A stretch of DNA of 63,822 nt, the filler included, from Neolecta irregularis DAH-3 (lineage: Eukaryota): the NCBI GenBank assembly GCA_001929475.1. It is 9 parts of 9 records of this genome, joined end to end, with 100 filler letters (N's around TTAATTAATTAA, not from the genome) between each part and the next. Parts side by side here need not be neighbours in the genome. Positions count along the whole stretch, not along the records: positions 49,164 to 51,320 come from LXFE01003167.1; 8 more parts are not named here. One strand, 5' to 3'. Position numbers and translations under genes: made by a program. Under the pieces are notes generated by a model, which saw only the letters and a program-made list of their open reading frames with translations, was not told where the DNA came from and did not search any database. Shown piece after piece: positions 3,598 through 57,600 of this stretch; the stretch's first letter is position 1; each line of letters opens with the position of its first letter.

Positions 3598-3964
3598 TAC
3601 TAAGAAAACCCAACAGAGAACGAAGGCGACTAAGGGGAATGAAAAATCTTTTGCGAATGATGGGGTCGATCTCCAAAACATCGATGGGCAGAATTTTGGA
3701 ATTGGATCGGTATAGGAACTAGAGATTTTTTTCATCAATTATAGAAGAAATATATTGATTTGATGTATTGAGATCGTTCTGTTACAATACTGTGTTGACG
3801 CAGTCAACTTGATATTATCGAGTACATCAATAATCTCGGACCTCGAACGATAACGTAATATTATTCGACAATATTCCGTATTTTATTTTTCACGGCAAAA
3901 GAAAAAAGGAGTTGTGATCATATTTCAAATGGTACAAATACAGAATATCTGCTATCACATCTAC

Positions 3965-12685: not shown

Positions 12686-12785
12686 NNNNNNNNNNNNNNN
12701 NNNNNNNNNNNNNNNNNNNNNNNNNNNNNTTAATTAATTAANNNNNNNNNNNNNNNNNNNNNNNNNNNNNNNNNNNNNNNNNNNN
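12686..12785. other. Artificial contig linker/gap (N44-TTAATTAATTAA-N44); same at 19909-20008, 22683-22782, 25375-25474, 28078-28177, 47654-47753, 49064-49163, 51321-51420
   Basis: Identical six-frame-stop spacer embedded in Ns, eight times. Confidence 0.98.
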
Positions 12786-16375: not shown

Positions 16376-18194
16376 TCAGTGCCCGGCAAATGAAGTCCTA
16401 TTCATTGCCATCATGAGTTGAAGTCCGAGCAACCGTAATGACCACATCCCAACTTTTTGTAACCTGCGTCGTCTAACCTGATCATCACGTACATTCCTTA
16501 CAAAGGCTTCGTAGACCTAGATGTCAGCCGGCGTGTCCCTACTGAAGGGAAACTACTTTGTCGGATACATCGCGCAACAAGCCGCAGTCGCAGACACCCC
16601 ATGCACCGTCGAATTCAGATAACGGTTTGACGACATGGCAATTCAGTGGAATAAATGTTCGTTGAGAATTGATAAATGCAACGATCGGACGGACGAGGGC
16701 GTTATTCGTGTATGATAGATCCGAGGTGAGATACGGAACAGCGGCTTTAACATTGTTTAACTGGACTCTAAGATCAAAAACCACTAGCACCGGGTCTTTT
16801 TCCTCAGTGGAAGTGGGAAGTTGTGTAAATCCTAGTTGTGTGTTGCGTTCGATATTTTCGATGATATCTTGGAGAATATTGATGAGGGTTGCTTTGCCTG
16901 GATTGGGAGGGAATATCATGTCTGCTGTGAAATCCGCTGTTCCGCTGCGAATCCATCCGAAGGGTCCCGAAATATCCCTGTTCAAATGGTCGATTTTCAC
17001 GTCATCAATTCGGAATCGAGAGGTTTGACGAGTTGACGTCAATGATGTAGATTGAGATTGTCGGGGGTGCAACGTGAATAAGGATCCATCGTATGACCCA
17101 GACATTGAGTTCGCGCACAAGAAATCGTAAAACATCCATTGTTTTCGAAGACGTGGAAGTTCGCAGGAGAAAATGCTTATTTGAAATGGCCGGAAGGAAT
17201 TTGGTTGCAGAACTGTTACAAGGAGGTCTTCTAACCGAAACGACTGGATCTCAAAGTCGCCTTCCCGATGCACTCGGAGTAACTCTTTAGGGAATTTCGA
17301 CTGTTCTTCGCCCGTCCAGGATACATGTGTCCGATCTATTCATTCAGTCTTTTTTCCAAGATATTTTTGTGCATACCGACAACTCCTCTGACACCTTTGA
17401 TTTCAACATCGTGAAGCAGGCCTTTTCCATTCCACCAATTCATGAATGATAGCGTGACATCTACGGTATCGATCGTAAGATCAAACTGGGTGCAATTGAC
17501 ATCCTCAGCCTCAGCCTCGAAATCCCAGTCTTGATAATCGACTTCAGTGCGTACTAGAGTAGCCGCCGCAGTAGCTGCAGCCATTGGAGATCCTTTTTTC
17601 ATCGTGCCGTAACTCCTGCCTCGAATACGATTCAGCCGTTTGGACGCGAATACCTTGTTTAACTGGATCTTTCCGGACTTGGGAACAATGGCGGATTCAA
17701 ATATCACAGTTATTCCGGACTGACGAGTTAAGTAATTTCCTACTGAGCGAGCGAGGAATTCTGGGACTCGTTAGATATGGGATCGGGAAAGGTATGTATG
17801 TACCTTGGGCGGACACTGTATTGATAGCCGCAATGGCCAGACTAACAAAAGTCGTAGTTCCGACTACGATCCATAAGACATGGCCTGCCAGGATCCAAGT
17901 GAAGAACGCGCTAATCTCGTCGGCAGTGAAGGCGCGATATTGCCTTATGGTAGCGAACTTGAATCTGATTTTGAGTCTCTGGTAGAGAGAGGTAGCCGCA
18001 GAGAGGAGCTCTACTTTTGAAGGGGCGTGGAAGTAGGTTATGCGCTGAAGATGCGGGTTTCCTGGCGGGCGAACCGTGGGAGGTGGGACGGAGACATGCG
18101 GGCGGCGAAGGAGAAGGCCATGTGTTTTCACCCAAATATTCCTACCGGGAAAAGTATAGAGCGGAAAGTGGGTGTGGACCAGGCCTCTGATCAT
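16376..18194 (-). CDS. MDM31: Mitochondrial distribution and morphology protein Mdm31/Mdm32 family, multi-exon
   Basis: RAFTADEISAFFTW, GTTTFVSL, NCTQFDLTIDTVDVTLSF..WWNGKGLL, ELPRLRKQWMFYDFL, NNALVRPIVAFINS. Confidence 0.93.
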
Positions 18195-19900: not shown

Positions 19901-20008
19901 CGTAAGGCNNNNNNNNNNNNNNNNNNNNNNNNNNNNNNNNNNNNNNNNNNNNTTAATTAATTAANNNNNNNNNNNNNNNNNNNNNNNNNNNNNNNNNNNN
20001 NNNNNNNN

Positions 20009-22682: not shown

Positions 22683-23322
22683 NNNNNNNNNNNNNNNNNN
22701 NNNNNNNNNNNNNNNNNNNNNNNNNNTTAATTAATTAANNNNNNNNNNNNNNNNNNNNNNNNNNNNNNNNNNNNNNNNNNNNGTAAATAGTATATAGTGA
22801 CGGGAATGGGGAAATACTTAGCCAAGTACGTCTACTTAGGCTAGGTATATTCCCCTCATGCAAGTACGTCTACTTAGGCTAGTTATAACACTTGGTCTTA
22901 TCGTACTTCTAAGCGCATAGCTTACAGTCTCAAAGGTTGAAATCTATAGCAGAAGTGAGCTAGAAAAATAAGACTAAAAATTTCGCCGTCATCGTGACAA
23001 GCTTTTGAACCAATCCAGACAAAGGACTTTCTGGGTCAGGAAGTTTCCTACCAAGATTCAGCCTCCAATGGTATTTTCCAACCACAATACCCGCATTCAG
23101 AAACAATCGTGTTGAAAAAGAGTCATCCATTGGTCTTTTCATGAAAGTTTCACCGAGACTGGAACGCCAAGCGCCACTGGGTGTCTCAAGAAGCGTTCAT
23201 GGCGAAAACAAGGCTTTTCTTTTCTTATTAAATAGCACACCGTAGCCCACTAAGGAAGCAGGATTTTAAACAACAACCTGAAACCCGACCCTTCCCTCAA
23301 GCGAGTCAGTTTAACCTATATT

Positions 23323-25265: not shown

Positions 25266-25914
25266 AGAATGTCGAGACTGACAGAATAGTGAAATATCGA
25301 TTCGATCATGTCAGCACACTCGTCGGTATGTGGTGCTGGTTGAGACTTGGGTTGGGTGCTCTGACTTAGTTACTNNNNNNNNNNNNNNNNNNNNNNNNNN
25401 NNNNNNNNNNNNNNNNNNTTAATTAATTAANNNNNNNNNNNNNNNNNNNNNNNNNNNNNNNNNNNNNNNNNNNNCTACTTATTCCACCAACGCCTGATTA
25501 CTGTATTGGTAAGGTATACCGACTGGGTATATCCTTACAGTAGGGGTCAAAAGTCACAATCATTTCCGAAACATGGTAGCTATTGTGAACGAAATCCTTA
25601 AATTTGCGGTGCAAATGAAAGACAATCATGAATAAAAAGTCAAAAGAGACCTAAAGGAAAAACATGGAATTATTTTCGATAGATATCGACAACACGTCTA
25701 CTGCTCTCCCGTTATCGAGAAATCCAAACTATAGCCGTTTGATGCTCTGAACAGGGCTGTATGGTTTTGACCGTCATCTATTATGAATTTGATCATGGAT
25801 GTGAAAAATGAGTGTTGCATGTTTCAGTTTTCTCCTGTCATTCAAACGCACTGGCAGGTCAAGTGATACGCTGAGACAATTTCAGTCAAAAATGACCGTT
25901 TTTATAGGTTTACC

Positions 25915-27598: not shown

Positions 27599-28859
27599 TT
27601 ATTGAAATAAAATTGACTTCTATCGTTAAGCGAGATCTTGGACCTTGACAGTTGACAATGTAAAAGCTCCAAGCCCTACTTTGAAAATTGTTCATTCTTG
27701 GGTTGATTCTGTTCACCGTTAGAGCCAGTTTATTGTCCTTGTTATCTATTGATGAAGATTGTAACTGAGGACTAACTATGTGGCAGCTAGTTGTCACCAT
27801 AAGGATGACAACTATCTTCCACATAGGTGGTATATATACATGATACTTAGTGTTTATGCTATACCTCTCTCATACGCTGAGGGAGTCTCCACTCTCTGTA
27901 CAGATATCCAAGTGTGGGAGCTCTTTGTATGCCTGGGAGGCTAGAACTCCTGTATCAGACTCTAGGTGAACTTCTTGGAATAGGGTGCTAGTCACTTAGG
28001 AAGTAACTAACTCTATTCAAGTTGTTGGTTAAAAGCCTGCCCTCCTAGTGAGGTACAAGCCTGCTACTTATAGTGAANNNNNNNNNNNNNNNNNNNNNNN
28101 NNNNNNNNNNNNNNNNNNNNNTTAATTAATTAANNNNNNNNNNNNNNNNNNNNNNNNNNNNNNNNNNNNNNNNNNNNGTGGTAAGGTTGGTGGAGGACGG
28201 TTACAGATTTGGGGGTGTGGCTGTGCGATTCCACAGGTGGGACAGAACACATTAATTGGTGTGCTATAAGTCGGAGTTACGCTGTTTTCTAATAAAGAAT
28301 CGGGACATGGGAGAGGATCGCTTGCAAAGCCACGCTTCTTCGGCTATTACTTTCTAAATGTCTATGTAAATCTTTGTTAGCCGACATGCTTTCTGTTATC
28401 TTTTTGCAACAATCCTGCTTTGGAAATATCTGGATCACCCCTTGTTAGCACCATGCAATGAAAAGCATATATGAGGAGAACGTATCAGATACAACATGGG
28501 GCAATCTTCGCCGAGTCTGACTCCGTTATCTCATCTTCAAAACAGTAATCCGCATCCTCCTTCCATTCATGTTTTCAGAAGTCAATCATGGTGTGTTCGG
28601 GAAGAAAAGTAATACAAAAATAGCATTCTTAGAGTCATGATGTGTGCGTAAGCGACCAAACTTTTGTTGCAGATGGGCCCTAATAGTATTCTACTAATTT
28701 CATTCCATGATTTAGTACCACAAATGCAAAACTCCATTCTGTTTCTGTGAACTTGTGTATCCTCTAAACCAACATGGCAACGCCTTAGAAGCAACAACAG
28801 ATTGTGTAAAGAAAAACCCCGAACATGAAAGACTTTGAAGTGGTCATCAAAGGACGAAC

Positions 28860-34673: not shown

Positions 34674-36399
34674 ATGAAAGTTTTTTTCAAGTCATTGGTG
34701 ATCGCCATTGCCGCAGTTTCTGTGTCTGCAGACGTCTTGGAATCTTCGGACGTCTTACAGATGACAAAGGCTACTTTTGATGATTTCGTCAAAGACCATG
34801 AACTGCTACTGGCAGAGTTTTACGCACCATGGTTTGTCATTTCATGCACTTCGGATTGGGACTAACATATAGGTGTGGACATTGTAAAGTACGGAGTACA
34901 TCACTTTTGATGCTAACGACATAGATGCTCGCTCACGAGTATGAGCAAGCTGCCACGAAACTAAAGGAACAAGTATGCTCTTCATTCTGGACTCAAAAAT
35001 AACTATTTCAGAATATTCCCCTTATCAAGGTCGACTGTACAGAGGAAGAAGACCTTTGTAGTGAGCAGGAAGTACAAGGGTACCCTACTTTGAAGGTACC
35101 TGGTTATTCGAGTCCCAGTCTCATTTCGAGGTCTTTCGTGATGCGAAATCAGCTCCATACCAGGGTGCGAGAAAATATGAAGCAATTGTCTCGTATATGA
35201 CGAAGCAACGGCTTCCTGCTGTTTCGACTCTCACTAAGGAGAGTCACGACGAATTTACAACCTCCGACAAGGTTGTTGTTATTTGCTATCTTGACAAATC
35301 GGATTCCACTAATGCTGAAACCTTCGAAAAAGTTGCCAATGCACTCCGAGATGACTTCTTGTTTGGAATTGTTACCGATGCCAATGTCGTCGCCTCGGAA
35401 AAAAGACCTTCTATCGTCCTTTACAGGAGTTTCGATGAACCAAAGACCGTCTATAATGGTAAACTAACCGTCGAACAACTACAAAAGTTTATAAAGACTG
35501 CCAGCGTTCCTCTTATCGGAGACATTGGACCCGAAACCTATTCTACCTACATCGAGGCTGGAGTTCCACTGACTTTTATCTTCACCGAAGAAGCTGACAA
35601 AGAAAGATTGGTTGAAGAATTGAAGCCTCTTGCCAAAAAATTCAAGGATCATTTGAACGTTGCCACTATTGATGCCACTGCTTTTAGTGCCCACGCTGGT
35701 AATCTCAATCTTGAGGCTAAATGGCCTGCCATTGCAATCCACGATACAATCAATAATCTCAAATACCCCTTAGATCAAACCAAAGAAATCACGTTTGCCG
35801 TTGTTGAAGCCTTTTTCGAATCCTTCATTGCCGGAACATTGGAACCCAAGATCAAGTCAGAAGAAATCCCCAAGACTCAGGATGGCCCAGTTACTGTTGT
35901 CGTCGCCAAGAATTACGATAATATTGTCCTGGATGACTCGAAAGATGTCCTTATTGAGTTCTTTGCCCCATGGTGTGGACACTGCAAGGTATGTAATTGG
36001 TCAAAGCACACTTCTAAGCATCAGAAACTTGCTCCGGAATATGAAAAATTGGCTCAATTTTATGAATCCTACAGTGACAAAGTTGTCATTGCTAAATGCG
36101 ACGCCACGCTCAATGATATCCCGGATAAGATTGTAGGATTTCCCACTATTAAGCTCTATCCTGCAAACCAGAAAAAGGAACCTGTTGAATATACTGGGGA
36201 TCGAAGTCTCGCTGGACTCGCTGCTTTTATCGCCGAACAAGGCACCTACAAAATCGACATAGAGGATAAAATTAAAGAATCAGAAGATGCTACAGCTGCC
36301 CCTGAAACTGATGGTCCAGGAGCAGGACAAAAAGTATTTGAAAAAATCAAAGAGGCTGGAGAAGCTGTTGGTGGTGATGAAATCCATGACGAATTGTAA
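34674..36399 (+). CDS. PDI1: Protein disulfide-isomerase, multi-exon
   Basis: Signal peptide, two APWCGHCK sites (the first split by an intron), C-terminal HDEL. Confidence 0.97.
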
Positions 36400-47653: not shown

Positions 47654-48324
47654 NNNNNNNNNNNNNNNNNNNNNNNNNNNNNNNNNNNNNNNNNNNNTTA
47701 ATTAATTAANNNNNNNNNNNNNNNNNNNNNNNNNNNNNNNNNNNNNNNNNNNNCACGGTTCTGCTTCCCACGACGGTCCTCTGTCTTCCTTAGAGTATCT
47801 TCGTACCGGGAGTATGGGGCGTGCTGACGAGTCACCGTATGTAAACGGGGCTTAGTTTAGCTTTTCCTTTTTTACCTACAGCGTGTACTGGAAGGAAGTA
47901 TGTTGTGTTCTGCAGGTATATAGATTAGCCCACCGCCCCTCTTTCAAACAAAATCAAAATATATCAAAGATCCAAAGCACAACTTTAAGAACCTTATCCG
48001 CTACCACCCTCCCATTCATCACAATCAACTATCACTCCATATCCATCCTCTTCCTGACTTTGACCCTTGGGACGGATTCTGCGCGACATACTGTCTGAAT
48101 AGCGAATCAAGTCCTTTCTTTAATAACCTGATTCCTCGCTATAAGACACCGCCTCGCACAACAAAGCATCAACCCCGTTTTCACTAATAACCTACCCTTC
48201 GTCAAAGCAGTCAAACCTCACCGTAAACACTGATTGGAACCTGTGTGCTAACAAGCCTGTTGTAAAGAATCGTGTAATTGGGGATTTTGGGAACTTTGTC
48301 CAAAACATGAGTCCCAGCGTTCCT

Positions 48325-49048: not shown

Positions 49049-49163
49049 GGTTCGCGATAAATTNNNNNNNNNNNNNNNNNNNNNNNNNNNNNNNNNNNNN
49101 NNNNNNNTTAATTAATTAANNNNNNNNNNNNNNNNNNNNNNNNNNNNNNNNNNNNNNNNNNNN

Positions 49164-49776
49164 CATCCGACACCGCCGCATACCGCACTCGCCGTCGCTT
49201 CTCTCCAGCCTTCCGCGGTGAATACTTGTAATCAGGATATTGTTGTTGATGCTGAACCCGAGCACTTTGAGCCAATTCTTGATATCGCTGCTTGATGCTT
49301 GATGATTCGGCTTTCCACATCTCCCCAATAATCCTAGAAACGTCATTGTTGCAGATCCCATCATTTTCAGCAAAAATAAGTGGCTGCTTTTCCTTGCGGT
49401 ATAGAATAAATGCGTTTGGCGGCCGCGGAGGCCTTTTTGGTACCTTTTCTGGTTTGGGGGACTTCTTCCGCTTCATTGGTCGTACAATAAAGGTCGGTAA
49501 CTTGCTCTCTCTTAATGAAAATGGTATCCTGATGCAGGTGGTGTGAGCCCGAGGATTTAGTTTGAGAAATTCACTTTCATCGTCTTCCGCAAATAATACC
49601 GGAATGAACCCGTCCGGAACGAACCAGGCACTCCCTTTATTTTGCCGAACGAGCTCAAGGGCGTCTTTGGTGCTAAACTTTTGCACCGGCTGAGCAAGAG
49701 TCTCATCACTATTTCCTAAATGTTGGCGAACTTGGCCGGATTCTGGAGATTCAGCGAAATCGGAAGACGAAGACAT
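49164..49776 (-). CDS. matMc: Mating-type HMG-box transcription factor (Mc / MATa2 / MAT1-2-1 class), 3' end truncated by a gap
   Basis: PRPPNAFILYRKEK...NNDVSRIIGEMWK.ES...RY......QH...YPDYKYSPRK closely resembles the S. pombe Mc HMG box; ATG at 49776; no intron in the box. Confidence 0.85.
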
Positions 49777-49862
49777 GACTGATCGAGCCAAATGAGAGAA
49801 AGAAAGAAAGAAATGGGATAGAGAGTCGACAGTATAAATATAAAACGGTCTGTGATGTGAAT

Positions 49863-49963
49863 GACAAAGAAAAGAGATGCCGGAATGGTCTCTTTCTGAT
49901 TAGAAACTTCTTGCTGATCACGGTCGCTAAAAACGCCCCAAGCGCCCCCCTTCATCCTTTGTC
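49863..49963. promoter_or_regulatory. Two oppositely oriented TR-box-like (Ste11/HMG) sites in the divergent MAT promoter
   Basis: GACAAAGAAA at 49863-49872 (reverse complement TTTCTTTGTC, 9/10 to the TR-box TTTCTTTGTT) and TCCTTTGTC at 49955-49963. Confidence 0.45.
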
Positions 49964-50081
49964 TTGCTTTCGTCAAAGCAAAGCGCGCGTGATTTAGATC
50001 ACTTAGGGACGCTCCGCCCCTCCACCTCACTTCATCTTAATAAATAACAACTCTCCCTACCCCTTCATCATCACCCGCAAA

Positions 50082-50810
50082 ATGCCTTTGCGAAAAGATG
50101 TTCCTCTTGCGCATCTTGCTGCGCTAGCGGATGAATTGGCTGTCACAACGTCTCAGTACGAAACACCTTTGGAATTAATGCAGGATCGAATCGTACATCC
50201 TTTTTTCCTGGCTGAGATTTCGTCGAAATATCCCCTGACGGCTATCGAAAGTCAAGGCTCGTCCCCTGAGTCTCAAGAGATGCTCCGCGGTGCGCTCGAT
50301 AGTCTACAAAGCGTTCACGAAGGAGCCTTCAATGACTGTGCTTTGATTACGCAGCGCATATGTTGGAGTGATCCAGTTGCCCAAGATATGGAACTAGCCG
50401 ATCTTCATCGTTCCCTTCAACGCGAGCTTGCACAAGTTTGTGCTTCCGTCATTGCTATGACGGAGAATTATAAAGAGAATGCTGAAGAGGGCGATAAGTC
50501 AGGTGGCCGCAAACGACGATTTGGCAACGACGCTCGCCACATTCTCGAAGCCGCTTATCTTTGCAAGGATAGACCTAATCGTCTTGAAAAGGATCGTCTT
50601 GCAAAGCGATGTGGTCTCACTCCTCGACAGGTTGGGGTTTGGGTATTACTTTCTTTTTTTAAAAAAGAATGAAACTTACTTCAGTTTTCAAATAGGCGTT
50701 CGCGGGGCCGAACTGAGAAGAAGGATGTAGTTTACTATTGTTCTCCTCCCTCTACAAACTCGCCTTCGTCCGATATGCACTTCCCATCGCCGCAATATGA
50801 GTTTGTCTAA
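50082..50810 (+). CDS. Mating-type HD2-class (MATa1-like) homeodomain protein, 228 aa; exons 50082-50642 and 50685-50810
   Basis: Reads on the + strand (the ORF track strand label is wrong). A 42-nt GT..AG intron splits W|FSNRRSR. Canonical non-TALE spacing (F8, L16, P26, W48, F49, N51, R53); ARHILE...N..EK..LAKRCGLTPRQV.VWF resembles a1. Confidence 0.88.
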
Positions 50811-51946
50811 AAGTCTTCGTCAAGAATTCGGTATACATTATAAGAATAATGGGGGTTTGGTCTTCAAGATTGGAAAAGCTCTATGGATTTGGACATGTTT
50901 GAGCACTCATCATCTGTATATTGTTTGATACCTATCGTCTCGTGTAGATACTTAATTGTGATAGATACCTACTGCTGGCTAGTGACTTAGAAAATTGAGT
51001 TCATCGTTAGGCGATTTTGCGCAATTGTTGTGCAGTGTTCCATGGTTTCCGCCAATTATTTACGTAGGCAAGCTTATTTAGAATGAGAAGGATTGCCCAA
51101 AGTGATTTAAGTTCCTATTACGAGCTGATGCAAACTAAGACCCGATGTACGTGTGCACATACACGCTCTTCCGCAGAGGCCCCTAGTCATCCTCGTCCTG
51201 TCGATAATATGAAACTTTCCGCATTTCACCTAGGACACGCCTTGCATTTGATAAATCGTTCTCCAATTTCAAAATTTCTACCTGTTGCTCCATCTCTCTG
51301 ACCTTGAATTCATGAGAACCNNNNNNNNNNNNNNNNNNNNNNNNNNNNNNNNNNNNNNNNNNNNTTAATTAATTAANNNNNNNNNNNNNNNNNNNNNNNN
51401 NNNNNNNNNNNNNNNNNNNNTCTCTTTGTATCTTCTGAGATAATAGACTTGTTCATTGTTGCTTATTAAGTAACACAGCCTGGAGTATCACACAAGATCC
51501 GCTAGTGCGCCTAGTGTAACCTGATCGCATTCGTGTAACAATCGCGGATCTTAGCTGTTTACATATAGGGTAAAACTATCTCATTATACATATGAGACAT
51601 ATAGATAAGTCTGAAACATTATAATAAGTCCAAAATATGATAATAAGTCTGAGACATATGAATAGGTCATTCATATGAGAGAGATGACATATCATCCCTT
51701 ACACCAAGGGGGTACCTGAGACAGGGGCCCACTATAAGCGAGGGGAAATTCCTGAGATAGGGGAGCTTGTAAGATAGGGGTGCCTGTGGTTATATAAATC
51801 ACTGTAAGGAGGTCTGATTAGCCATTATCCTCACAAATTACTGCTAAATATTCATAAAAATTAATAAACTAATTATTATTAATAATTATTTTTGTTAACT
51901 TCTCTATTGGATTTATATACTACCTATCTTTCTATATAATATTCTC

Positions 51947-54681: not shown

Positions 54682-57600
54682 ATGTCTGCCGTCCAACAGC
54701 CTAACAATGGGGGATTGGAATTGAGGCTCGACGATGAGCCTGTCGGACAGGACCCCACCTGCAATGGTTGCGGAGCGGTATCAAGAGTCGTAGACTGGAT
54801 GAGACTAAGTGAAACTAGATCATTGAAGAAGGGTCCGTTGTGGCGTTTGGAGATCATATCTGGCACGTTGAATGGTATATCATACCCAATGGCTCGGTTT
54901 TTCTTACGGTCCAGCTTTCGGTGTGCGAAATGTCGCACTCAAGTAGATCATGACTCAAATCTTCTACTTCTTTCGGACGGAAATCCAATATGCGAGAATT
55001 GCAGTTACAATTGTCGAGCTTGTAACAAGAAAATCGATGAACTGGCGATTATGACTGGTATGCACCATACTCGATTGCAAAGACTCAAGATTTATAGGAG
55101 ACGAAAGCTACCATGCGGATTGTTTCAGATGTCGGCATTGCAAGAGAAAGATTGACGATCTGGTGTTTGCAAAAACGAGCCAGGGAATTTATTGCATCGA
55201 TTGCCATAATGAAAGGATGGCTCGAAGCCGACGACATCATAAAGAGAAAAAGGCCGCACAGCGAGCCGCCGCCGAATCTTCGGCAACTAGTCATCCATCG
55301 CCGCCATTTGGGATGGTCAAGGATAAGAGTTTACCAAAACTCCCGCCATCTCAGTCTGATGAATGTTTACCCGTAAGATTTTCGACTCAGTCAGCACCTT
55401 CTGACACTTTGAAGATGCTATATTCAAGCTCCAAGTCGAGAAATAAGTCCCCATCTCGAGATGGTATCGGCCTGCTCGAGTCATACTGACATCAGGGCAA
55501 CTTTCACCTTCATCTAACCGTTCATTTTTGGCGATGGACAATGAGCATGACTTACCATCTACAGATGCATTTATACCACTCGTGTTCGACCCATCGCCTC
55601 CGTCACCACAACCTTACAATCAGCAAATTTCCCGTTCTCGGGACCTGTCCCAATCCAAGCAGGTCCTTGATCCAAGCAAAGCACCCGATCCAAGCAAACT
55701 CTGGACCCATCGCGGAGCATTCGATGATTCTAAACTCGGCGTAAAACCTCCAAGCAGCAAAGATAAAAGGCGATCAATGATGGTTTCCTCATCAATGGGA
55801 CAACTACCTTCCCCTGCATGTCAGAGTCCTCTTTTGCCATTCTTCTCTGAGCCAAACGCCCAGCATGCGAATCCAATAAGGCCGATTGCAGACAAACCGC
55901 CTAGGAAAGCACCAAAGCCCACTCCGTTGCAGAAACCTCGAACATTACCTACCACGCCCTCTGGAATGCCAGTTCACTCACCGGGAAAGCACAGGTCACC
56001 AGTTGACTGTCTCACATCGCCAAAACCAGGACTAGCATCCTCTTCATTCATGAAGTCACCGCAGAAAGATGTTTTTCCAGTCTCCACGATGGGCTCCTCT
56101 GAACCCCTTCAAAAGATCTCCCCCAGATCTTCTAACCCAGTTGCCGTCGAAAGATCTCCTGTGCTACCACCCTTGCATGAGCCAATTACATTAACTTTTG
56201 AGGATGACATCGCTAAAATATTTGCCGACAACGACCCTTCCGATGAAAAATCGAAAGCCTTCCTTCGACTTTCTCAATCATTGCGCCACCATCGCTCATT
56301 AAGTGATGTCTCTGGTCAAGCATCAGAAGTAGCTAGGATGTCAGCGATGCGACGAAACAACTCAAAATCTCAACGTCCTATCTTGAAGGATTCAATGGTC
56401 TCTACCTTGAACGGTAATTCTGGGGAAACGGATGCTCTGAAAAGGGAGTTAAGGAAGAGTACACAGAGAATTGTTGAATTGCAAAGTCAGCTGGTTGTCC
56501 TTGATAACGATACGGAGAGAGAGGCAGTCAGTATGAAAGAGACTATCGCAAGTTTGGAGGCCGTTCGTGAGATTCTCATTAAAGAGATTGACATTTTGAA
56601 AGGGATTAACGAGAACGAGTATGCCTTTTTCCCAAGGTATATTTTAACATTCAGATTTAGCGGTATCGAGGTTCGAGAAAGCATCCTTCAAGACTTGAAG
56701 AAGGCGCTTAATAATCTAAAAGACGCTTACAAACCCAAAATAGCAGAACTTATCGCCCAACGAGATTCTCTAATGGAGGAAAATGTACGTCTTCAGAGGA
56801 CTCGAGCTCAAGCGATCGAGGAAGCCAGGTTCCTGAATGCGAAGAACCTCGAATTAGCCGATCTAAACAACGAACTTGTGCGCCAAATCCAAGAAAGCTT
56901 CAAAGGTTCAAAACGCCATATACCAAAGTCTCAAAGTCAATGTACAGCCGCCAGCCTACCCCTGAGTATTTCGACAACCGCAGCAACTATAACACCTAGC
57001 GACTTGGATCGTCCGCGTACCCAAGACACGAATGACGAAAATGTGATCTCCGTTTCCAAAGTGATAGATAGAAGACGAAGTCAAGAAATCAATACGACTG
57101 CTCCCAAAAAGTTTAAGTGGAAGAAGGGTGTTGCAAAAGGATTCAATCAACTATGGAATGGGATCGTGTTATCAAAGGACCTTGTTAAAGGACACACTTT
57201 CGTTGAGAGTAGGTTCCTTAGACTGACGAAATGTGATCATTGCGGGGACAAATTATGGGGTCTAGAAGTCCGTTGTCAGAGTTGCGGGTTTGGTGCACAT
57301 GGCAAATGTATTGCAGAAGTCGTTGCGGCATGTTCAGGTGTCAATAGACAGATCATGCTTAGAGATGGGGATTCGATGTCTGACCATAGCTTGATAGAGG
57401 GTTCATATATTTGTTGGAACAGACTGACGTCCAGTTCCGATATTCGGGAACGATCTTTGCAAACAAGCTGAGGTCGAAGGTGTTCCGATACCGTACATCG
57501 TTGCAAGGTGTATTGAGGAGGTTGAATTTCGAGGTGAAGGTTGAAACAACGAACGCCTCTAATAGCTTAGGAATGGATTATGAAGGGATTTATCGAAAAT

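What the first reader, a model, noticed from the sequence alone, without database searches (positions are those of the whole stretch)
49164..50810. Mating-type idiomorph with an Mc-like HMG gene divergent from a full MATa1-like (HD2) homeodomain gene
Seen: an HMG-box gene (minus, ATG 49776) and a homeodomain gene (plus, ATG 50082) share a 305-bp divergent promoter. The homeodomain is only complete after splicing a 42-nt intron at W|F, and the ORF track gives the wrong strand, so it is easy to miss. It has canonical 60-aa non-TALE spacing and an a1-like helix 2-3 (EK..LAKRCGLTPRQV.VWFSNRR), preceded by about 140 aa of helical sequence that could be a dimerisation region. Known: in fission yeast Mc is paired with Mi, a tiny protein lacking a homeodomain, and the homeodomain partner Pi is TALE/HD1 class; budding yeasts pair a2 (HMG) with a1 (HD2), and S. 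cerevisiae a1 has an intron at this same W|F position. Inference: if the host is Taphrinomycotina, this is an ancestral a1+a2 arrangement retaining the homeodomain that Mi lost, linking basidiomycete HD2, a1 and Mi.
Basis: partly seen in the sequence, partly recalled or inferred. Interest (0 to 1): 0.88.

Follow-up and report, generated by a model that had tools for sequence, protein, structure and literature searches.

The report
Neolecta mating-type allele: Mc plus a1-like homeodomain

Summary
Contig 49164-51320 (2,157 bp, bounded by assembly linkers) carries an HMG-box gene on the minus strand and a homeodomain gene on the plus strand, 305 bp apart. The 42-nt intron at W|F is real: one contig of run X2 joins 50642 to 50685, and a 92%-identical 228-aa relative has the spliced sequence.

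The HMG protein is an orthologue of fission-yeast/Pneumocystis Mc. The homeodomain has no TALE insertion. Its best solved-structure match is S. cerevisiae a1, and it ranks directly behind budding-yeast a1 proteins in a profile test. The host is Neolecta (Taphrinomycotina).

New evidence that this is MAT:
- The contig's right end is the 3' end of SLA2, the classic MAT neighbour.
- In the source DNA run, a second contig shares both flanks but has 3,274 other bases in place of 49241-51201, at about equal depth. That is the pattern of two idiomorphs.
- Mc-linked homeodomain genes with the same W|F intron occur in four soil-metagenome contigs, and an orthologue occurs in Pneumocystis.

Not shown: the content of the other allele, any link to Mi, and HD1 binding. 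The gene arrangement is ordinary for budding yeasts but undescribed, in the papers I could search, for Taphrinomycotina.

The parts
49164..49776 (-). Mc-type (MATA_HMG) gene, first 204 codons. The ORF runs off the contig end at 49164.
   Evidence: It is 42-45% identical over 86-91% of its length to Pneumocystis Mc proteins. These include T551_02162, which is P. jirovecii matMc according to PMC5821091. It is 42% identical to S. pombe Mc.
49225..49431 (-). HMG box (residues 116-184)
   Evidence: Pfam PF00505, E 2.7e-23, 82.6 bits
49591..49671 (-). Mc-specific N-terminal motif (TKDAL...KGSAWFVPDGFIPVLF)
   Evidence: Invariant A39, G48, A50, F52, P54, G56, P59 and L61 in a 15-sequence Mc alignment
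49777..50081 (.). 305-bp shared divergent promoter region. The transcript contig of the homeodomain gene begins at 49984.
   Evidence: no ATG in 49984-50081. Two ACAAAG HMG-site cores against 0.25 expected, P 0.026, which is weak.
50082..50642 (+). a1-like homeodomain gene, exon 1 (187 codons: helical N-terminal region plus the homeodomain up to W187)
50643..50684 (+). 42-nt intron, GT..AG, phase 0 between W and F of helix 3
   Evidence: Removed in X2 record 6. Absent from relative P0004. Introns of 40-48 nt sit at the same position in L051, L053, L054 and L059.
50685..50810 (+). Homeodomain gene, exon 2 (41 codons plus stop)
50511..50711 (+). Homeodomain (residues 144-196, interrupted by the intron), typical 60-aa spacing without the TALE insertion
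   Evidence: Pfam PF00046, E 2.9e-13. Ungapped alignment to the a1 chains 1f43/1yrn. pLDDT 93-95.
49241..51201 (.). Allele-specific (idiomorph-like) segment of 1,961 bp. It holds Mc codons 1-179 and the whole homeodomain gene.
   Evidence: X1 record 3 (3,381 nt, depth 196.9) shares 49200-49240 and 51202-51267 but has 3,274 other letters between them. This allele is X1 record 2 (depth 177.9). The right flank, record 4, has depth 423.6.
51183..51320 (-). 3' end of SLA2/End4 (last 45 codons plus stop), convergent with the homeodomain gene
   Evidence: Pfam I_LWEQ PF01608, E 1.3e-11, 45.2 bits, profile positions 114-150 of 151. 13 of 14 residues identical to the full SLA2 of L064.

Best explanation
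The contig is one of two alternative alleles (idiomorphs) of the SLA2-linked mating-type locus of Neolecta, in Taphrinomycotina. It is the M/a-type allele. It carries an orthologue of Mc (the a2-class HMG-box factor) and a complete a1/HD2-class homeodomain gene, both transcribed outward from a 305-bp shared promoter.

Shown:
- the gene structures and the splicing of the intron;
- Mc orthology;
- non-TALE spacing of the homeodomain and its closest likeness to a1;
- the SLA2 flank;
- a second sequence between the same flanks in the source DNA;
- linkage of Mc with this homeodomain family in other fungi.

Inferred by analogy with a1-alpha2, bE-bW and Pi-Mi:
- Mc sets M-cell identity and pheromone-response genes.
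- The homeodomain protein is inactive alone. After two compatible nuclei share a cell, its long N-terminal helices and homeodomain pair with a TALE/HD1 partner encoded by the other allele. That pairing switches on the post-fertilisation and meiotic programme.
For: Gene content
- Mc: E about 1e-42 to Pneumocystis matMc-type proteins and 3e-32 to S. pombe Mc, over 80-91% of the protein. There are 34 invariant columns in 15 sequences, including the N-terminal motif.
- Homeodomain: the best solved-structure matches are S. cerevisiae a1 chains (E 8e-9, 38.8 bits; next is ISL-1 at 1.3e-6). MATalpha2 is not among the 60 shown.
- Profile test: with a profile of 5 budding-yeast a1 homeodomains, the next ranks among 324 homeodomain windows are P0286 (68.1), Neolecta (67.1), Pneumocystis (60.6, 59.6) and soil fungi (56.2, 55.7). 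Everything else scores 51.2 or less.
- Named a1 proteins are among the phmmer hits. P0274 is 'Mating type a1 protein [Lachancea waltii]'.
- Tree of 138 homeodomains: the smallest clade holding all Taphrinomycotina-like sequences has 16 tips and includes all 5 a1 proteins (SH-aLRT 78).

Splicing
-.

MAT context
- The SLA2 3' end abuts the allele.
- Full SLA2 lies next to an HMG MAT gene in L064.
- There is an alternative 3,274-nt allele at about 1:1 depth, and the flank depth is about the sum of the two.

Conserved linkage
- All 4 Mc-type metagenome loci with at least 2 kb of downstream flank carry this homeodomain family, with the same W|F intron.
- The Pneumocystis canis orthologue PCK1_000850 is reported on a contig of the same length (355,122 bp) as the P. 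canis Mc homologue PCK1_000838.

Host
- The PDI ORF is 97% identical to Neolecta irregularis DAH-3 PDI. The next best hits are 55% or less.
Against: - The other allele's sequence was not seen, so 'idiomorph' rests on one Logan contig in a run that may be the source of the assembly.
- Single-copy depth could not be calibrated. Two cassettes with duplicated flanks are therefore not excluded.
- The left flank depth (258) is lower than the sum of the two alleles.
- The class assignment rests on a domain of about 57 residues.
- Tree support is modest (78), and the 16-tip clade also holds 5 other proteins, among them one from a chytrid.
- Pfam's TALE model Homeobox_KN also passes its cut-off (30.5 against 24 bits).
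- The Pneumocystis orthologue's best PDB matches are DUX4 and Exd, with a1 only from rank 16.
- Run X2 is labelled 'DNA?'. Its being cDNA is inferred from the spliced contig and the uncovered intergenic stretches.
- The Mc gene is truncated at the contig end.
- No HD1 partner was found, and none could be sought because the genome is not held.
Confidence: 0.72

Rival explanations
1. The homeodomain gene is the orthologue of the gene published as matPi in Pneumocystis and Taphrina. The contig would then be a fused M+P locus of a self-fertile (primary homothallic) fungus, not one of two idiomorphs.
For: - The closest full-length relatives are Pneumocystis proteins (P0169, 216 aa; P0171). They have the homeodomain at the very C-terminus and share N-terminal motifs.
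- Homeobox_KN passes its Pfam cut-off.
Against: - There is no three-residue TALE insertion, and the alignment to a1 is ungapped.
- The a1 profile and the PDB ranking favour a1.
- A second allele exists between the same flanks in the source DNA, which a fused homothallic locus does not predict.
- Whether P0169/P0171 is matPi, the neighbour called 'yox1', or neither could not be settled. Locus tags place P0171 12 tags from Mc in P. canis, whereas matPi is 3 tags from matMc in P. jirovecii.
- Even if it is 'matPi', that name would be questionable rather than this gene being HD1.
Confidence: 0.13
2. The two versions seen in the source DNA are two mating-type cassettes (expressed and silent, or two loci) in one haploid genome with duplicated flanks, as in switching yeasts. 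They would not be alleles.
For: - Flank depth is about twice the depth of each version (423.6 against 177.9 and 196.9).
- The shared flank ends carry 2 of 41 and 3 of 66 mismatches.
Against: - The shared right flank contig is at least 4,259 nt and includes SLA2. That is far longer than the homology boxes I recall for known cassette systems.
- The same depth pattern is what two nuclei of opposite type in one tissue would give.
Confidence: 0.1
3. The homeodomain gene is an ordinary non-mating homeobox regulator (Yox1/Pho2/Phx1-like) that merely lies beside Mc.
For: - Homeodomain E-values to plant HD-ZIP and animal proteins are of the same order as those to a1.
- A 'yox1' gene is reported near MAT in Pneumocystis and T. 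deformans.
Against: - The gene lies wholly inside the allele-specific segment.
- It is linked to Mc in 4 further loci and probably in Pneumocystis.
- It ranks with a1 in the profile test and the tree.
- Its best PDB hit is a1.
Confidence: 0.05

Closest known systems
MATa idiomorph of budding yeasts (Saccharomycotina): a1 (HD2-type homeodomain) plus a2 (HMG), transcribed divergently
   Same: The same two protein classes, the same divergent layout from a short shared promoter, and SLA2 next to MAT in some lineages (recalled). The a1 homeodomain is the best structural and sequence match. The short intron in helix 3 is at the position I recall for S. cerevisiae a1.
   Different: The host is Taphrinomycotina. 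The HMG protein carries the Mc-specific N-terminal motif of fission yeast and Pneumocystis. The homeodomain protein has a helical N-terminal region of about 140 aa.
mat1-M of Schizosaccharomyces pombe: Mc plus Mi
   Same: An orthologous Mc. Mc shares a divergent promoter with a second mating-type gene (recalled for S. pombe).
   Different: The partner here is a 228-aa homeodomain protein, not a 42-aa peptide without a domain (the size of Mi is recalled). No similarity test to Mi was possible. SLA2 flanks the locus here.
Pneumocystis and Taphrina deformans MAT region (matMc, matMi, matPi; Almeida 2015, Richard 2018)
   Same: An orthologous Mc. An orthologous homeodomain protein (P0169, P0171) shares N-terminal motifs and a near-identical helix 3.
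   Different: In those species 'matMi' is a small ORF assigned by position only. The homeodomain gene is not adjacent to Mc and has no intron. The locus is read as fused and homothallic, whereas two versions are seen here.
Pezizomycotina MAT1-2 idiomorph flanked by SLA2
   Same: SLA2 lies next to an HMG mating-type gene. L064 is an example of that layout.
   Different: As far as I recall, Pezizomycotina idiomorphs carry no homeodomain gene.
Basidiomycete HD locus (HD1 and HD2 pairs, e.g. bE/bW)
   Same: A non-TALE HD2-like homeodomain with a helical N-terminal region. The language-model search gives a Basidiomycota homeodomain cluster (0.94) and 'HD2 AMF mating type protein' (0.89) as the nearest clusters. 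This is a lead only.
   Different: No HD1 gene lies beside it. It is paired with an HMG gene instead.

Membership tests
Mc / MATA_HMG mating-type factors of Taphrinomycotina | HMG box of the MATA_HMG/SOX type | tested here: met
   PF00505, E 2.7e-23. PRPPNAFILYR and YP.Y.Y.PR are invariant.
Mc / MATA_HMG mating-type factors of Taphrinomycotina | Mc-specific N-terminal domain (K/RGxAY/WFV/IPxGF/YxPI/VL ... LPxY) | tested here: met
   Aligned across 15 sequences, including S. pombe Mc and P. jirovecii T551_02162.
Mc / MATA_HMG mating-type factors of Taphrinomycotina | Confers M mating type (genetic function) | not testable with these tools
   Only the Pneumocystis orthologues have been shown to complement S. 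pombe matMc (passages of PMC5821091).
a1 / HD2-class mating-type homeodomain proteins | Typical 60-residue homeodomain without the three-residue TALE insertion | tested here: met
   Ungapped alignment to a1. PBX/Exd align only with a 3-residue gap.
a1 / HD2-class mating-type homeodomain proteins | Closer to a1 than to other homeodomain classes | tested here: met
   Top PDB hit is a1. It ranks directly after the a1 training set among 324 homeodomains. It falls in a 16-tip clade with all 5 a1 proteins, SH-aLRT 78. This is modest. HD1, Pi and Yox1 references were not available for the test.
a1 / HD2-class mating-type homeodomain proteins | Encoded in the mating-type-specific DNA of one mating type | tested here: met
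   The whole gene lies in the 1,961-bp segment that another contig of the same DNA run replaces with 3,274 other bases. This rests on one run with no independent sample.
a1 / HD2-class mating-type homeodomain proteins | Intron in helix 3 between W and F | tested here: inconclusive
   Present here and in 4 Mc-linked metagenome genes. Absent in Pneumocystis. The position in S. cerevisiae a1 is recalled only, because the paper was not held.
a1 / HD2-class mating-type homeodomain proteins | Works as a heterodimer with a TALE/HD1 partner | not tested
   No partner sequence was available. The genome is not held, and no other homeodomain is in the window.
Pi / alpha2 / HD1 (TALE) mating-type homeodomain proteins | Three extra residues between helix 1 and helix 2 | tested here: not met
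   Homeobox_KN nevertheless scores 30.5 bits.
Mi of fission yeast | Short M-specific peptide, divergent from Mc, with sequence likeness to Mi | not tested
   The position relative to Mc is equivalent. No Mi sequence was available from any tool. The literature assigns Mi in other Taphrinomycotina by position only.
Ascomycete MAT locus (idiomorphic, SLA2-linked) | SLA2 adjacent to the mating-type genes | tested here: met
   I_LWEQ C-terminus at 51186-51320, minus strand.
Ascomycete MAT locus (idiomorphic, SLA2-linked) | Two unrelated sequences at the same chromosomal position | tested here: inconclusive
   One alternative contig shares both flanks at about equal depth. Its content is unseen, and cassettes are not excluded.

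The most novel reading that the evidence does not exclude
The last common ancestor of ascomycetes had an SLA2-linked M/a idiomorph encoding both an HMG factor (Mc/a2) and an HD2 homeodomain (a1). Neolecta and several uncultured soil relatives still have it. Fission-yeast Mi, which sits in the same place opposite Mc, would be what is left of that HD2 gene, or would have replaced it. The Pneumocystis homeodomain gene now read as a 'P' gene (or as 'yox1') would really be this HD2. The Pneumocystis MAT region would then hold a-type genes rather than a fusion of P and M information, which would reopen the argument for primary homothallism there.
Probability: 0.3. Interest if true: 0.85.

Novelty: new member of a known kind. 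Interest (0 to 1): 0.62.

Why it matters
Mating-type loci of Taphrinomycotina have been read through the fission-yeast template (Mc, Mi, Pc, Pi). 'Mi' has been assigned by position alone in Pneumocystis, Taphrina and Protomyces.

A Neolecta allele that pairs Mc with a full a1-class homeodomain next to SLA2 ties three layouts together: fission yeast, budding yeast and filamentous ascomycetes. It gives a concrete candidate for the missing a1 counterpart in this subphylum. It also suggests that Neolecta fruiting tissue carries two mating types. The origin of Mi and the class of the Pneumocystis homeodomain gene become directly testable.

I found no description of a Neolecta MAT locus. The main text of the Neolecta genome paper PMC5309816 has no occurrence of 'HMG' or 'homeobox', and no MAT-locus passage among the 12 of 16 places I was shown. 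It is also not among the 27 papers that hold both 'Neolecta' and 'mating'. Its supplements could not be seen.

Tried and rejected
- Whole genome: not held, so the opposite allele and an HD1 gene could not be sought.
- Sequencing runs: no RNA holder listed.
- Metagenome scan with P0004: found nothing.
- Earlier findings of this scan: nothing found.
- Other homeodomain or HMG genes in the window: none besides these two.
- The alternative allele: not on any other contig of the window.
- SLA2 in the other 79 metagenome loci: none.
- Flanks of soil contigs against the window: no shared genes other than Mc, the homeodomain and SLA2.
- HMG-site cores in the 305-bp promoter: only weakly enriched, 2 against 0.25 expected, P 0.026. 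I do not rely on this.
- Foldseek against PDB: only homeodomains, all at E about 1e-2, so it does not discriminate between classes.
- Literature searches for a conserved HD2/a1 intron, and for the TALE status of S. pombe Pi, gave nothing usable. Miller 1984 is not held.
- Complex prediction was not run because no partner sequence exists to test.
- L004 and L055 are Mc-like loci with 1.5-2 kb of downstream flank and show no homeodomain. Their flanks may simply be too short.
Full report
**What the window is.** The window is not one stretch of chromosome. Eight N44-TTAATTAATTAA-N44 linkers join nine contigs. The finding occupies one whole small contig, 49164-51320 (2,157 bp, 45.5% G+C). No whole genome is held for the window.

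**The observation.**
- On the minus strand, an ORF starts at ATG 49776 and runs off the contig end at 49164 after 204 codons. It has a full HMG box at residues 116-184 (Pfam E 2.7e-23).
- On the plus strand, 305 bp away, an ORF starts at ATG 50082 and reaches W187 at 50642.
- A 42-nt GT..AG segment follows (50643-50684).
- The frame then continues with FSNRR... to the stop codon at 50808-50810.

The splice is confirmed in two ways.
- A word-indexed search of 5.8 billion proteins found one relative among 209 candidates. This is P0004 (228 aa, 92% identical), whose sequence is the spliced form exactly.
- Of the Logan contigs of two public runs that hold this DNA, X2 record 6 (1,001 nt, no mismatches) covers 49984-50641 joined directly to 50684-51024. 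That is the 42 nt removed, allowing for the tool's stated one-base ambiguity in placing the joint.

X2 leaves the intergenic stretches uncovered. It therefore looks like cDNA, although its library type is not on record. There is no ATG in 49984-50081.

**Host.** A 444-codon PDI ORF on the 19,476-bp contig of the window is 97% identical, over 95% of its length, to 'Protein disulfide-isomerase, partial [Neolecta irregularis DAH-3]'. That protein is itself recorded on a 19,476-bp contig. All other hits are 55% or less. The host is therefore Neolecta (Neolectomycetes, Taphrinomycotina) or something nearly identical.

**The HMG gene is Mc.** Of 26 relatives with E up to 1e-3, among 103 candidates, the best named ones are:
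- Pneumocystis proteins (42-45% identity over 86-91%, E about 1e-42);
- S. pombe Mc (42% over 80%, E 3e-32).

One of the Pneumocystis proteins, T551_02162, is the P. jirovecii matMc that complements an S. pombe matMc mutant (passages of PMC5821091). A 15-sequence alignment has 34 invariant columns. These include the N-terminal motif that lies outside the HMG box.

**The homeodomain gene is a1-like.**
- It aligns without gaps to the S. cerevisiae a1 homeodomain. TALE proteins (PBX, Exd) need a three-residue gap.
- For the full-length relative, the a1 chains are the top solved-structure matches (E 8e-9; next is ISL-1 at 1.3e-6). MATalpha2 is not among the 60 shown.
- An exhaustive phmmer search of 1.84 billion representatives gave 726 hits at E up to 1e-3. 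Many are multi-homeodomain or plant HD-ZIP proteins.
- The single-domain fungal hits include a named a1 (Lachancea waltii) and likely a1 proteins of Lodderomyces, Pichia and Candida.
- A profile built from five of these a1 domains ranks the Neolecta domain at 67.1 bits, Pneumocystis at 60.6 and 59.6, and the soil-fungus domains at 56.2 and 55.7. The only untrained domain that scores higher is P0286, an unnamed Logan protein (68.1). All other windows among the 324 tested score 51.2 or less.
- In a maximum-likelihood tree of 138 domains (57 columns), the smallest clade holding all these sequences has 16 tips and contains all five a1 proteins. Its support is only SH-aLRT 78.
- The AlphaFold model has a confident homeodomain (pLDDT 93-95) and long N-terminal helices at moderate confidence.
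- Foldseek finds only homeodomains and does not discriminate. 1yrn_A (a1) has the highest identity (47%) and the lowest rmsd (0.4 A).

Evidence against the a1 assignment:
- Pfam's TALE model also passes its cut-off.
- The Pneumocystis orthologue's best PDB hits are DUX4 and Exd rather than a1.
- No Pi, HD1 or Yox1 reference could be put in the tree.

**It is the mating-type locus.**
- The last 45 codons on the minus strand at 51186-51320 are the C-terminus of an I/LWEQ domain (Pfam E 1.3e-11). They match the end of a full ANTH + I/LWEQ protein (SLA2) that sits 2.3 kb from an HMG gene on metagenome contig L064. From established knowledge, not from a call, SLA2 is the classic neighbour of MAT in filamentous ascomycetes and some yeasts.
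- In the DNA run that holds the whole contig (X1), record 2 (depth 177.9) is this sequence. Record 3 (3,381 nt, depth 196.9) shares 49200-49240 and 51202-51267 but has 3,274 other bases in place of the 1,961 between them. The right flank contig (4,259 nt) has depth 423.6, about the sum of the two.

That is the signature of two idiomorphs in one sample. It also explains why the assembly broke into a 2-kb contig here. The left border falls at about Mc codon 179, at the end of the HMG box. The right border falls in the last codons of SLA2. The alternative sequence is not in the window and could not be read. Two cassettes with duplicated flanks remain possible, because depth could not be calibrated and the left flank depth is only 258.

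**Relatives elsewhere.** A metagenome scan with the Mc alignment returned 80 loci (the best of 329 relatives).
- 48 of the 80 match the Mc N-terminal domain.
- All 4 of these with at least 2 kb of downstream flank (L051, L053, L054, L059) carry a homeodomain gene of this family. L053 and L054 are about 98% identical.
- In each, an intron of 40-48 nt, GT..AG, sits at the same W|F position.
- The two loci with 1.5-2 kb of downstream flank show none.
- None of the 10 loci with at least 1 kb upstream has a divergent copy.

In these fungi the order is Mc, then the homeodomain gene on the same strand. In L051 and L054 a second HMG-box gene follows. Linkage is therefore conserved, but the divergent layout is not.

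In Pneumocystis, P0169 and P0171 (P. canis PCK1_000850) share N-terminal motifs and an almost identical helix 3 with the Neolecta protein. P0171 is recorded on a contig of the same length as the P. canis Mc homologue.

I could not determine whether this gene is the one published as matPi, the neighbour called 'yox1', or neither. The sequences are in figures or supplements that I could not see.

**What is inferred.** By analogy with a1-alpha2, bE-bW and Pi-Mi, the homeodomain protein should act only with a TALE/HD1 partner from the other allele, after compatible nuclei meet. Mc should set M identity. Neither was tested.

The position opposite Mc fits. Published 'matMi' genes outside fission yeast were assigned by position only. 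No Mi sequence was available to compare. The statements that S. pombe Pi is TALE-class and that S. cerevisiae a1 has its second intron at W|F are from memory.

**Novelty.** I found no description of a Neolecta mating-type locus, nor of an a1-class gene in a Taphrinomycotina M locus.
- The main text of the Neolecta genome paper has no occurrence of 'HMG' or 'homeobox', and no MAT-locus passage among the 12 of 16 places shown. That paper is also not among the 27 that hold both 'Neolecta' and 'mating'. Its supplements are closed.

The gene pair itself is the ordinary MATa content of budding yeasts. This is therefore a new member of a known kind, whose value lies in where it sits on the tree.

Noticed in passing
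window 12686-12785, 19909-20008, 22683-22782, 25375-25474, 28078-28177, 47654-47753, 49064-49163, 51321-51420: Eight N44-TTAATTAATTAA-N44 linkers. The window is nine contigs laid end to end, so gene neighbourhood across these points means nothing.
   Followed up: yes
L054 14459-15409 (+) and L051 4841-5470 (+): A second HMG-box gene lies directly downstream of the a1-like homeodomain gene in two soil-fungus contigs. Pfam gives HMG_box E 3.3e-7 and a sub-threshold MATalpha_HMGbox hit at E 0.0015. The cluster of three genes (Mc, homeodomain, HMG) could be a fused or more complex MAT locus.
   Followed up: partly
L064 4176-7520 (+) and 9785-10831 (+): Full SLA2 (ANTH + I/LWEQ) lies 2.3 kb upstream of an HMG-box gene on a 288-kb metagenome contig. 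This is a textbook SLA2-MAT1-2-1 layout of a filamentous ascomycete.
   Followed up: partly
L051 3878-4003: The homeodomain gene of this locus changes frame inside helix 1 (two frames overlap at 3899-3908). This is either a sequencing error or a decaying copy.
   Followed up: no
L001-L003, L050-L054, L058, L059, L063, L067, L076: In these soil-fungus Mc genes the HMG box is split between two reading frames after FILYRK.KQ, which indicates an intron. The Neolecta Mc has none there.
   Followed up: no
window 49164-49603 and leftwards: X2 record 5 (1,254 nt) covers 49164-49603 and continues 814 nt beyond the contig's left end. The missing 3' part of Mc and its left neighbour therefore exist in public data.
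   Followed up: no
window 35065-36399 (+), 16539-17339 (-), 55447-57471 (+): Ordinary housekeeping genes on other contigs: protein disulfide-isomerase, an MDM31/MDM32 family protein, and a C1-domain protein.
   Followed up: partly
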